Assembly (NCBI RefSeq): GCF_003334815.1
Contig: NZ_QOWO01000006.1
Source of the DNA: Escherichia coli
GTDB taxonomy: Bacteria > Pseudomonadota > Gammaproteobacteria > Enterobacterales > Enterobacteriaceae
Strand: one strand, 5' to 3'
Length of the DNA stretch: 64,000 nt
Both the position numbers and the translations under genes were made by a program. Below are positions 7,914 to 8,230 of the stretch, in pieces. The notes beneath the pieces were generated by a model. That model saw nothing but the letters and a program-made list of their open reading frames with translations. It had not been told where the DNA came from and made no database searches. The number at the start of each line of letters is the position of its first letter. The stretch's first letter is position 1.

Positions 7914-7934
7914 ATGCCGCCCAAAGGGCGGCAT
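7914..7934 (-). terminator. Intrinsic terminator hairpin (U-tract on minus strand; may also act on sseB from the plus strand)
   Basis: GCCGCCC/GGGCGGC stem 4 nt after sseB stop; the T-run is on the minus-strand side (plus-strand CTAAAATAT preceding the hairpin). Confidence 0.6.
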
Positions 7935-8230
7935 TCGGGCTTACTTGCTGCTCTGAAGGTTGTTAACCACCAGTAAATTGTCGCCGGAGAGACTCCGGTT
8001 ATTATTTACCTCGGTTAACAGCGCACCAGAAACAATAAGTACGATACAAAAGCACCGTATCTTCATTGTGCGGTCCATGCGAAGACCGCATCACGACAGC
8101 ACCACTGGCGATATTGCCGCGATAGCAAGCGCTGTGAAACACCTGCATTTACGGCCACGGAACATCCTTTCCTAAAGCCAGCGCCCGTTTGCGAGACGGC
8201 GGAAAGGGCCGCAGTGGATAATACACTAAC
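7914..8230 (-). ncRNA. Candidate ~315-nt structured minus-strand transcript (size and position fit the ryfA sRNA) carrying small ORFs
   Basis: Minus-strand -10 TATTAT (plus 8237-8242) with weak -35; several internal hairpins; ends at hairpin ATGCCGCCC-AAA-GGGCGGCAT (7914-7934) followed by a U-run on the minus strand; contains a 24-codon ORF with AGGAAAGG SD and a 41-45 codon hydrophobic ORF. Confidence 0.35.

What the first reader, a model, noticed from the sequence alone, without database searches (positions are those of the whole stretch)
7914..8230. Minus-strand transcript candidate with a hydrophobic 41-45 aa ORF ending at a terminator (type I toxin-like; ryfA position)
Reading the minus strand between the module-1 palindrome and the hairpin after sseB gives: (i) a 24-codon ORF (8165 down to 8091, MFRGRKCRCFTALAIAAISPVVLS) with a strong AGGAAAGG SD; (ii) 13 nt later a 45-codon ORF (8078 down to 7941; internal ATG at 8066 gives 41 aa MKIRCFCIVLIVSGALLTEVNNNRSLSGDNLLVVNNLQSSK) with a hydrophobic N-terminal segment and a weak RBS; (iii) an intrinsic terminator with minus-strand U-run right after its stop. 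The ~315 nt length from a TATTAT -10 (8237-8242) to the terminator fits the ~300-nt ryfA sRNA mapped between sseA and sseB, and the layout resembles small membrane-toxin mRNAs (for example TimP encoded in ryfA of Salmonella). Neither ORF is in the 60-aa ORF track.
Basis: partly seen in the sequence, partly recalled or inferred. Interest (0 to 1): 0.55.

Follow-up and report, generated by a model that had tools for sequence, protein, structure and literature searches.

The report
Known timP toxin mRNA (ryfA)

Summary
Rfam ryfA (RF00126) matches window 8212..7909 (-) end to end at 314.9 bits. The 41-aa ORF (8066..7941, -) scores 86.4 bits against NCBIfam TimP (cut-off 45). K-12 MG1655 annotates exactly these sequences as ryfA b4440, timP b4812 and timR b4811. 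The ORF is intact in nine ryfA copies from five genera, and all indels inside it are multiples of three.

The published control elements are all present. SL4 sequesters the SD. The SL1-SL3 pseudoknot shows compensatory changes. The TimR target in SL2 is there.

- The conserved -10 is TATTAT 8223-8218 (+1 about 8210-8212), not 8242-8237.
- The 'strong SD' AGGAAAGG is the invariant 3' strand of SL1.
- The 24-codon upstream ORF has an ATG in only 4 of 9 copies, and a comparable Salmonella uORF was shown to be dispensable.
- The 41-aa start, not the 45-aa start, is the conserved one.

Side finding: this K-12-type locus is a mosaic. The cognate TimR lies about 400 nt upstream (8612-8711, +). The adjacent TimR-like gene (8291-8390, + = ECS011) carries a seed cognate to a different timP allele.

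TimP toxicity has not yet been shown for the E. coli allele.

The parts
7909..8212 (-). timP mRNA (formerly sRNA RyfA), 304 nt
   Evidence: Rfam RF00126 matches model 1-296/296 at 314.9 bits. The K-12 ryfA b4440 sequence is found exactly here. MFE -129.4 kcal/mol, z = -5.4.
8218..8223 (-). Probable timP -10 hexamer TATTAT (+1 about 8210-8212)
   Evidence: A TAnnAT-like hexamer lies 4-5 nt upstream of the Rfam 5' end in all 11 ryfA copies. It fits the Salmonella numbering, start codon +145 (PMC7667032) versus +147 here. The TSS is inferred, not mapped.
8167..8206 (-). SL1.
   Evidence: Rfam consensus structure. The helix is 98% paired and nearly invariant in 9 sequences.
8177..8183 (-). Site 1 (CGCUGGC), the 5' partner of the pseudoknot
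   Evidence: Forms 7 bp with site 3. 100% of cells are paired and 2 pairs show changes on both sides. The pseudoknot is essential for translation in Salmonella (PMC11228461).
8091..8165 (-). 24-codon upstream ORF (MFRGRK...VVLS), probably not a functional gene
   Evidence: ATG is present in 4 of 9 aligned copies; it is TCG in Citrobacter and ATA or AGT in Yersinia. A putative uORF in the same part of the Salmonella 5'UTR had its start codon mutated with no effect on translation (PMC11228461).
8151..8156 (-). Site 2 (GGCCGU), which pairs with the 5' flank of SL4 to free the SD, or with site 1 in the inactive fold
   Evidence: 6 pairs with 8089..8084, 2 of them G:U. Corresponds to Salmonella C57-G59 (PMC13000454). 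The columns are invariant, so there is no covariation evidence.
8131..8149 (-). TimR-binding site in SL2 (AAUGCAGGUGUUUCACAGC; SL2 = 8145..8126)
   Evidence: 19 contiguous pairs with the distal TimR 5' end, 2 of them G:U, -34.6 kcal/mol.
8090..8123 (-). SL3, with site 3 (GCCAGUG, 8109..8103) in its upper part
8070..8089 (-). SL4 (GCGGUCUUCGCAUGGACCGC), which sequesters the weak SD GGA (8076..8074)
   Evidence: All 7 pairs are invariant in 9 sequences. Folds at -11.3 kcal/mol, against about -11 reported for Salmonella (PMC11228461).
7941..8066 (-). timP CDS, 41 aa: MKIRCFCIVLIVSGALLTEVNNNRSLSGDNLLVVNNLQSSK
   Evidence: RefSeq timP CDS and K-12 b4812. NCBIfam NF040796 scores 86.4 bits against a cut-off of 45, on residues 5-44 of the 45-aa ORF. 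Residues 5-18 have mean KD 2.6.
7914..7934 (-). Intrinsic terminator hairpin, U-run to 7909, overlapping the end of convergent sseB
   Evidence: The helix is 94% paired with compensatory changes.
8612..8711 (+). timR (b4811), the cognate antitoxin sRNA, in the distal module
   Evidence: The K-12 timR sequence is found exactly here. Seed pairing. Terminator at 8679-8716. Promoter: TTGACA 8577-8582, 17-nt spacer, GAGTAT 8600-8605.
8289..8390 (+). Proximal TimR-like sRNA (= ECS011/IS129) with a diverged 'type 3' seed
   Evidence: The ECS011 read sequence matches 8289-8359 exactly. Northern band about 95-100 nt (PMC3175480). -23 to -26 kcal/mol with this timP, but -37.3 with the GF4-3 copy-3 SL2. 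Own TTGACA at 8255-8260 and terminator at 8355-8389.
8344..8552 (-). Rfam 'IS128': duplicated timP promoter, a 17-nt timP 5' stub (8534..8518), unrelated AT-rich DNA, and the antisense of the proximal terminator
   Evidence: RF00125 at 262 bits. Repeat D1. Stub alignment. Not detected with strand-specific probes (PMC3175480).

Best explanation
Window 8212..7909 (-) is the primary transcript of timP, the toxin gene of the enterobacterial timPR type I toxin-antitoxin locus, historically annotated as the sRNA RyfA. It encodes a 41-aa protein with a basic N-terminus, a 14-residue hydrophobic core and a polar tail. In Salmonella the homologue inserts into the inner membrane and makes it leaky when overproduced.

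Translation is normally off because the weak SD is locked in the very stable hairpin SL4. The mRNA becomes translatable without cleavage when site 1 (SL1) pairs with site 3 (SL3) to form a pseudoknot, and site 2 pairs with the 5' flank of SL4 to free the SD. Pairing of site 1 with site 2 locks the inactive fold.

The antitoxin sRNA TimR is transcribed divergently from upstream. Its 5' end base-pairs with SL2 of the active conformer, destabilises the pseudoknot and blocks initiation.

Shown here by computation: identity, ORF conservation, conserved helices, pseudoknot covariation, and a 19-bp TimR:SL2 complementarity. Taken from Salmonella experiments: toxicity, membrane targeting, the structural switch and TimR repression. 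Inferred for this allele: that it is translated, that it is toxic, and that the distal TimR is the operative antitoxin.
For: Rfam ryfA match of 314.9 bits, full length, on the minus strand. NCBIfam TimP match of 86.4 bits against a cut-off of 45. RefSeq and K-12 annotate timP, ryfA and timR at exactly these sequences. The locus is present in 5426 of 5426 complete E. coli genomes. The ORF is intact in 9 full-length copies from Escherichia, Citrobacter, Superficieibacter, Yersinia and Rahnella, and every indel in the ORF is a multiple of 3. The proposed structure is 96.7% paired, against 35-50% when the partners are slid; the pseudoknot is 100% paired with 2 compensatory pairs; SL4 is invariant. 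TimR seed pairing is -34.6 kcal/mol over 19 bp. In the other copies examined, the best-pairing antisense segment (the putative TimR seed) lies 63-77 nt upstream of timP +1 on the opposite strand. Mechanism papers: PMC7667032, PMC11228461, PMC13000454. Salmonella timP expressed constitutively in E. coli allowed colonies only when mutated (PMC13000454).
Against: No experiment has yet shown production or toxicity of the E. coli TimP allele; the 2026 APEC paper says so explicitly. In UPEC, ryfA alleles with the ORF destroyed still complemented all delta-ryfA phenotypes. A timR deletion in APEC had minimal effect. The codon-position variability test was uninformative at this divergence. SL4, site 2 and site 4 are invariant, so they give no covariation support.
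Confidence: 0.88

Rival explanations
1. In E. coli, RyfA works mainly, or additionally, as a base-pairing regulatory sRNA affecting stress resistance, fimbriae and virulence, with TimR as its RNA partner. On this view the ORF is secondary or unused.
For: ORF-disrupted ryfA alleles fully complement UPEC delta-ryfA phenotypes (PMC8205139). In APEC, delta-ryfA is attenuated while the delta-ryfA delta-timR double mutant is like wild type (PMC13188913). A ProQ-RyfA paper appears in the listing by title only.
Against: The ORF, its start, its stop and its frame are kept across five genera, with in-frame indels only. The NCBIfam TimP model is passed. The elaborate translational switch is conserved. 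A dual function is compatible with the main explanation; only 'ORF unused' is a true rival.
Confidence: 0.3
2. The 24-codon upstream ORF (8165..8091) is a leader peptide whose translation opens SL4 and couples to timP, as mok does for hok.
For: An AGGA-type motif lies 4 nt before its ATG. The ORF ends 12 nt before SL4's loop ATG. The frame is open in all 9 aligned sequences.
Against: The ATG is absent in 5 of 9 copies (Citrobacter and four Yersinia). The 'SD' is paired in SL1 and stays invariant even where there is no ATG. Mutating a uORF start in Salmonella did not change timP translation (PMC11228461). There is no codon-position signal.
Confidence: 0.03
3. The ORF is a chance reading frame inside a structured non-coding RNA.
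For: ORFs of 40-60 codons are common on both strands nearby. Codon-position variability is flat.
Against: Conservation of the start, stop, length class and hydrophobic N-terminus across genera. Indels of 3 or 6 nt only. The HMM match. Translation and toxicity proven for the Salmonella orthologue (PMC7667032).
Confidence: 0.02

Closest known systems
Salmonella Typhimurium timP/TimR (Andresen 2020; Eleftheraki & Holmqvist 2024; Eleftheraki 2026)
   Same: Same Rfam and NCBIfam families. Same position next to sseB. Same SL1-SL4 layout, pseudoknot sites, sequestered SD, TimR target in SL2, and divergent upstream TimR with a terminator.
   Different: The E. coli protein is 41 aa rather than 38, with a divergent C-terminal tail. 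Salmonella has STM2534 between sseA and timP. In this window the cognate TimR lies about 400 nt upstream behind an extra module, rather than adjacent to timP. Toxicity is untested for the E. coli allele.
Shigella dysenteriae RyfA1/RyfA2 with RyfB1/RyfB2 (Fris 2017)
   Same: Tandem duplication of the unit. A short variable region in the SL2 loop decides which RyfB (TimR) pairs with which RyfA.
   Different: Here only one full timP remains. The second unit is reduced to a promoter plus a 17-nt stub, and the toxin sits next to the non-cognate antitoxin paralogue.
tisB/istR-1, zorO/orzO and shoB/ohsC (chromosomal type I TA with divergent, partly complementary antitoxins)
   Same: A small hydrophobic inner-membrane toxin. 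A structured 5'UTR that hides the RBS. An antitoxin encoded apart from the target site, with a short stretch of complementarity. tisB also uses a pseudoknot.
   Different: Those mRNAs need 5' processing to become active. timP uses a purely structural switch (PMC11228461, PMC13000454).
hok/mok/sok
   Same: Membrane toxin with a sequestered SD and an upstream reading frame.
   Different: hok needs mok translation and 3' processing. Here the upstream ORF is neither conserved nor required.

Membership tests
Rfam RF00126 ryfA | Covariance-model score at or above the gathering threshold (80 bits), full length | tested here: met
   314.9 bits, model 1-296/296, minus strand 8212..7909
NCBIfam NF040796 toxic_TimP | HMM score at or above the curated cut-off (45 bits) | tested here: met
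   86.4 bits, E 1.1e-24, profile 1-40/40 on residues 5-44 of the 45-aa ORF
timPR type I toxin-antitoxin system | Small ORF with a hydrophobic N-terminal segment, conserved as coding | tested here: met
   Intact in 9 of 9 full-length copies; all indels are multiples of 3. KD 2.6 over residues 5-18.
timPR type I toxin-antitoxin system | Upstream, opposite-strand sRNA whose 5' end is complementary (about 18 nt) to SL2 of the 5'UTR and which ends in a terminator | tested here: met
   Distal TimR 8612-8711 (+): 19 bp, -34.6 kcal/mol, with its own terminator and promoter. It lies about 400 nt upstream, not 63-77 nt as in the other copies.
timPR type I toxin-antitoxin system | SD sequestered in the stable SL4 | tested here: met
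   SL4 folds at -11.3 kcal/mol. All 7 pairs are invariant. Invariance gives no covariation support.
timPR type I toxin-antitoxin system | SL1-SL3 pseudoknot (sites 1-3) | tested here: met
   7 bp in E. coli. 100% paired in 9 sequences, with 2 pairs changed on both sides.
timPR type I toxin-antitoxin system | Site 2-site 4 complementarity that opens SL4 | tested here: met
   GGCCGU x GCGGUC gives 6 pairs, 2 of them G:U. The columns are invariant.
timPR type I toxin-antitoxin system | The protein is toxic or membrane-damaging when expressed | not testable with these tools
   Shown for Salmonella TimP, including in an E. coli host (PMC7667032, PMC13000454). Not shown for the E. coli allele (PMC13188913).
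timPR type I toxin-antitoxin system | TimR represses timP translation | not testable with these tools
   Shown in Salmonella with compensatory mutants (PMC7667032). Only complementarity was tested here.
hok/mok-type uORF coupling | Conserved, translated upstream ORF required for toxin translation | tested here: not met
   The start codon is missing in 5 of 9 copies. A uORF start mutant is neutral in Salmonella (PMC11228461).
Rfam RF00125 IS128 | Covariance-model score at or above the gathering threshold | tested here: met
   262 bits at 8552..8344 (-). However, the RNA was not detected with strand-specific probes (PMC3175480), and the sequence is a timP promoter plus 5' stub.

The most novel reading that the evidence does not exclude
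In K-12-type E. coli the timP locus is a recombinant of two 'specificity types'. The toxin mRNA (type-2 SL2) is driven by a type-3 promoter. It sits next to an expressed type-3 TimR paralogue (ECS011) that pairs poorly with it. Its true antitoxin lies one module further away, behind a dead toxin stub. If so, the proximal sRNA is an orphan antitoxin. It could be free to act on other targets, or it could serve only as a weak back-up repressor. That might explain why TimR-alone phenotypes appear in some E. coli backgrounds, and why toxin control differs between lineages.
Probability: 0.3. Interest if true: 0.35.

Novelty: already known. Interest (0 to 1): 0.12.

Why it matters
For a genome scan this is a positive control: a reader with no tools correctly recognised a type I toxin mRNA hidden in an 'sRNA' gene. 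The biology itself is published and annotated as timP b4812, ryfA b4440 and timR b4811. Two points remain open. Whether the E. coli allele is actually made and toxic is still undetermined in the literature. It is also unclear which of the two TimR paralogues in K-12-type strains controls it. Both matter for interpreting the ryfA and timR virulence phenotypes reported in UPEC and APEC.

Tried and rejected
Only about 10 Enterobacterales loci were usable, and none was from Salmonella.

2. The search for homologous proteins with the 41-aa peptide returned almost only Escherichia and Shigella TimP alleles because of the word-index limit. It gave naming evidence but no cross-genus reach.

3. Codon-position variability for timP (25/26/28 of 37 columns) and for the uORF (14/13/12 of 24) was flat and uninformative. 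I relied instead on start and stop retention and on indel phase.

4. Duplex folding of full-length TimR against full-length ryfA gave meaningless long duplexes. I replaced it with 19-24-nt seed windows.

5. The consensus promoter scan hit TTGTCA-16-TATTGT on the minus strand (8261..8234). I rejected it as the timP promoter. The TTGTCA is the mirror image of the conserved timR -35 inside a palindrome, and its distance to the conserved -10 varies between species.

6. I looked for the distal TimR in the Shinhara 2011 supplements and did not find it. Only C0614, which partly overlaps its 5' end, is listed. Expression of the distal copy in K-12 is therefore unverified here.

Full report
IDENTITY. 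The window is E. coli, 99.95% identical to K-12 MG1655 over the pepB-sseB-sseA region. Rfam's ryfA model (RF00126) matches the minus strand at 8212..7909 from the first to the last model position, at 314.9 bits against a gathering threshold of 80. In RefSeq E. coli genomes the feature under this DNA is 'timP: small toxic inner membrane protein TimP'. That CDS maps to window 8066..7941 (-). K-12 MG1655 annotates ryfA (b4440), timP (b4812, 'putative toxic protein TimP') and timR (b4811). All three K-12 sequences occur exactly in the window, at 7909-8212 (-), 7941-8066 (-) and 8612-8711 (+). The 45-aa ORF scores 86.4 bits against NCBIfam NF040796 toxic_TimP (cut-off 45), and the profile covers residues 5-44, which is the 41-aa form. 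[quoted passage not shown]

CHECK OF THE OBSERVATION. Both ORFs, the internal ATG, the terminator hairpin with its U-run and the TATTAT at 8242-8237 are present as described. The gap between the two ORFs is 12 nt rather than 13. An ORF of this size is not remarkable by itself. What lifts it above chance is the family-level evidence above, an MFE z-score of -5.4 for the 304-nt RNA and cross-genus conservation. ryfA is present in 5426 of 5426 complete E. coli genomes. In nine full-length ryfA copies (two E. coli alleles, Citrobacter, Superficieibacter, four Yersinia and Rahnella; all confirmed by Rfam at 195-302 bits) the timP frame is intact. It has a conserved MK(I)R..C.I.L.V.G hydrophobic N-terminus and a variable polar tail. 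Every alignment gap inside the ORF is 3 or 6 nt long. Rahnella lacks the upstream 'MDRT' ATG, and that ATG lies inside SL4. The second ATG (8066) is therefore the conserved start, in agreement with the annotation and the HMM.

(a) Promoter. A TAnnAT-like hexamer lies 4-5 nt upstream of the Rfam 5' end in all eleven copies. In the window it is TATTAT at 8223..8218, which gives +1 at about 8210-8212. This matches the K-12 annotation, the CFT073 numbering of the 45-aa ORF at +135 to +270, and the Salmonella start codon at +145. The conserved TGTCAAG upstream is the reverse complement of a consensus TTGACA -35 for the divergent timR.
(b) The 'strong SD'. AGGAAAGG is the 3' strand of the SL1 lower stem, paired with CCUUUCC at +6..+12. 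It stays invariant even in species that have no ATG after it.
(c) The 24-codon ORF. It has an ATG in only 4 of 9 copies; the codon is TCG in Citrobacter and ATA or AGT in Yersinia. The frame stays open everywhere, but the region has no indels and is constrained by SL2 and SL3. In Salmonella a putative uORF in the same part of the 5'UTR was inactivated without any effect on timP translation (PMC11228461).

MECHANISM. The published model comes from Salmonella (PMC7667032, PMC11228461, PMC13000454). TimP is a Sec-signal-like inner-membrane protein that causes membrane leakage and killing when overproduced. The primary mRNA is not processed. Its SD is buried in SL4. Translation needs a pseudoknot between site 1 (SL1) and site 3 (SL3), plus pairing of site 2 with the 5' flank of SL4. 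Site 1-site 2 pairing locks the inactive fold. TimR binds SL2 of the active conformer, destabilises the pseudoknot and blocks initiation.

All of these elements can be placed in the window:
- SL1: 8206..8167
- Site 1, CGCUGGC: 8183..8177
- Site 2, GGCCGU: 8156..8151
- TimR target: 8149..8131, within SL2 (8145..8126)
- SL3: 8123..8090, with site 3, GCCAGUG, at 8109..8103
- SL4: 8089..8070 (-11.3 kcal/mol), containing the SD GGA at 8076..8074
- Start codon: 8066
- Terminator: 7934..7914

On the nine-sequence alignment, 96.7% of cells in this structure form standard pairs, against 35-50% when the 3' partners are slid by 1-3 columns. The pseudoknot is 100% paired, and two of its pairs change on both sides (C:G to U:A, and U:A to C:G). 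SL4 never varies, which is neutral evidence. TimP has a mean Kyte-Doolittle value of 2.6 over residues 5-18 and a polar tail. What remains inferred is that the E. coli allele is translated and toxic. The 2026 APEC paper states that this is still undetermined, and UPEC ryfA phenotypes were independent of the ORF. A dual role for RyfA as a regulatory RNA therefore remains a live, non-exclusive rival.

ANTITOXIN AND LOCUS ARCHITECTURE (side finding). The sseA-timP spacer holds two tandem modules of about 322 nt. Each module has a palindrome carrying a TTGACA -35 on the plus strand, a TimR-like gene and a bidirectional terminator. The distal TimR (8612-8711, the annotated timR) forms 19 contiguous pairs with SL2 (-34.6 kcal/mol). 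The proximal copy (8291-8390) has two mismatches and three G:U pairs (-23.3 kcal/mol). In every other copy examined, the best-pairing antisense segment (the putative TimR seed) starts only 63-77 nt upstream of timP +1, and a divergent E. coli allele (L017) has a single unit.

E. coli GF4-3 carries three tandem timR-timP units with three different SL2/seed types. Cognate duplexes are -36 to -37 kcal/mol and non-cognate ones are -19 to -26. Against that reference:
- The window's timP transcript is type 2, with four mismatches to GF4-3 copy 2.
- Its promoter is 75/75 identical to the type-3 unit.
- The adjacent TimR-like gene has the type-3 seed (-37.3 kcal/mol with the GF4-3 copy-3 SL2).
- The distal module consists of the type-2 TimR, the type-2 promoter and only the first 17 nt of a timP, followed by unrelated AT-rich DNA. 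This is what Rfam calls IS128.

The proximal copy is expressed in K-12. The deep-sequencing RNA ECS011/IS129 has exactly its sequence and gives bands of about 95-100 nt, whereas IS128 was not detected with strand-specific probes (PMC3175480). The module-2-specific segment is at least 80% covered in 1894 of 5426 complete genomes. Tandem ryfA/ryfB units and a specificity-determining variable region are already described for S. dysenteriae (PMC5333039). This is therefore a variation on a known theme, but the mismatch between toxin and neighbouring antitoxin in K-12-type strains was not stated in any paper I read.

VERDICT. Interest is low for discovery purposes. The residual open points are the experimental status of the E. 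coli TimP allele and which TimR paralogue controls it.

Noticed in passing
window 8196-8727 (both strands): There are two tandem modules of about 322 nt between timP and sseA (repeats 8196-8286/8518-8608 at 90% and 8322-8385/8648-8711 at 84%). Each has a TimR-like gene, a terminator and a palindrome. The timP next to the proximal module is cognate to the distal TimR, so the locus is a mosaic of two specificity types.
   Followed up: partly
window 8289-8390 (+): The proximal TimR-like gene is identical to the K-12 deep-sequencing sRNA ECS011/IS129 (Northern band about 95-100 nt). Its seed matches the SL2 of a different timP allele (GF4-3 copy 3) rather than the adjacent timP. It may be an orphan antitoxin paralogue.
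   Followed up: partly
window 8344-8552 (-): The Rfam IS128 hit (262 bits) is a duplicated timP promoter plus the first 17 nt of timP, fused to AT-rich DNA and running into the proximal terminator. The literature could not detect this RNA strand-specifically. It looks like a dead toxin stub rather than an sRNA gene.
   Followed up: partly
window 8241-8272 and 8565-8594: Perfect 12-bp-arm palindromes (TAACTCTCTTTT...AAAAGAGAGTTA) are centred on TTGACA/TGTCAA. They carry the consensus -35 of each timR and mirror it on the timP strand. A possible shared operator for the divergent promoters; not investigated.
   Followed up: no
L123 (E. coli GF4-3, NZ_CP053258.1), locus 1800-3480: Three tandem timR-timP units, each followed by an 87-nt sseB 3' fragment, with three distinct SL2/TimR-seed types that pair only with their own partner. 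About 178 extra ryfA places across the 5426 genomes suggest multi-copy loci in a few percent of strains.
   Followed up: partly
L049, L050, L051 (Yersinia pekkanenii): At least three ryfA copies lie on separate contigs of one genome, each with its own well-matched upstream antisense seed (-40 to -43 kcal/mol). This is multi-copy timPR outside Escherichia and Shigella.
   Followed up: no
window 425-534 (+) and 21381-21472 (+): Other Rfam hits above threshold are the iscR stability element iscRS (138 bits) and sroE (117 bits). Both are ordinary known K-12 features.
   Followed up: no
protein list (P0035-P0048): Several E. coli and Shigella TimP entries are shorter (26-38 aa; for example Shigella sonnei at 34 aa). 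Some are partial calls at contig ends, others are possibly truncated alleles. This could indicate toxin decay in some lineages.
   Followed up: no
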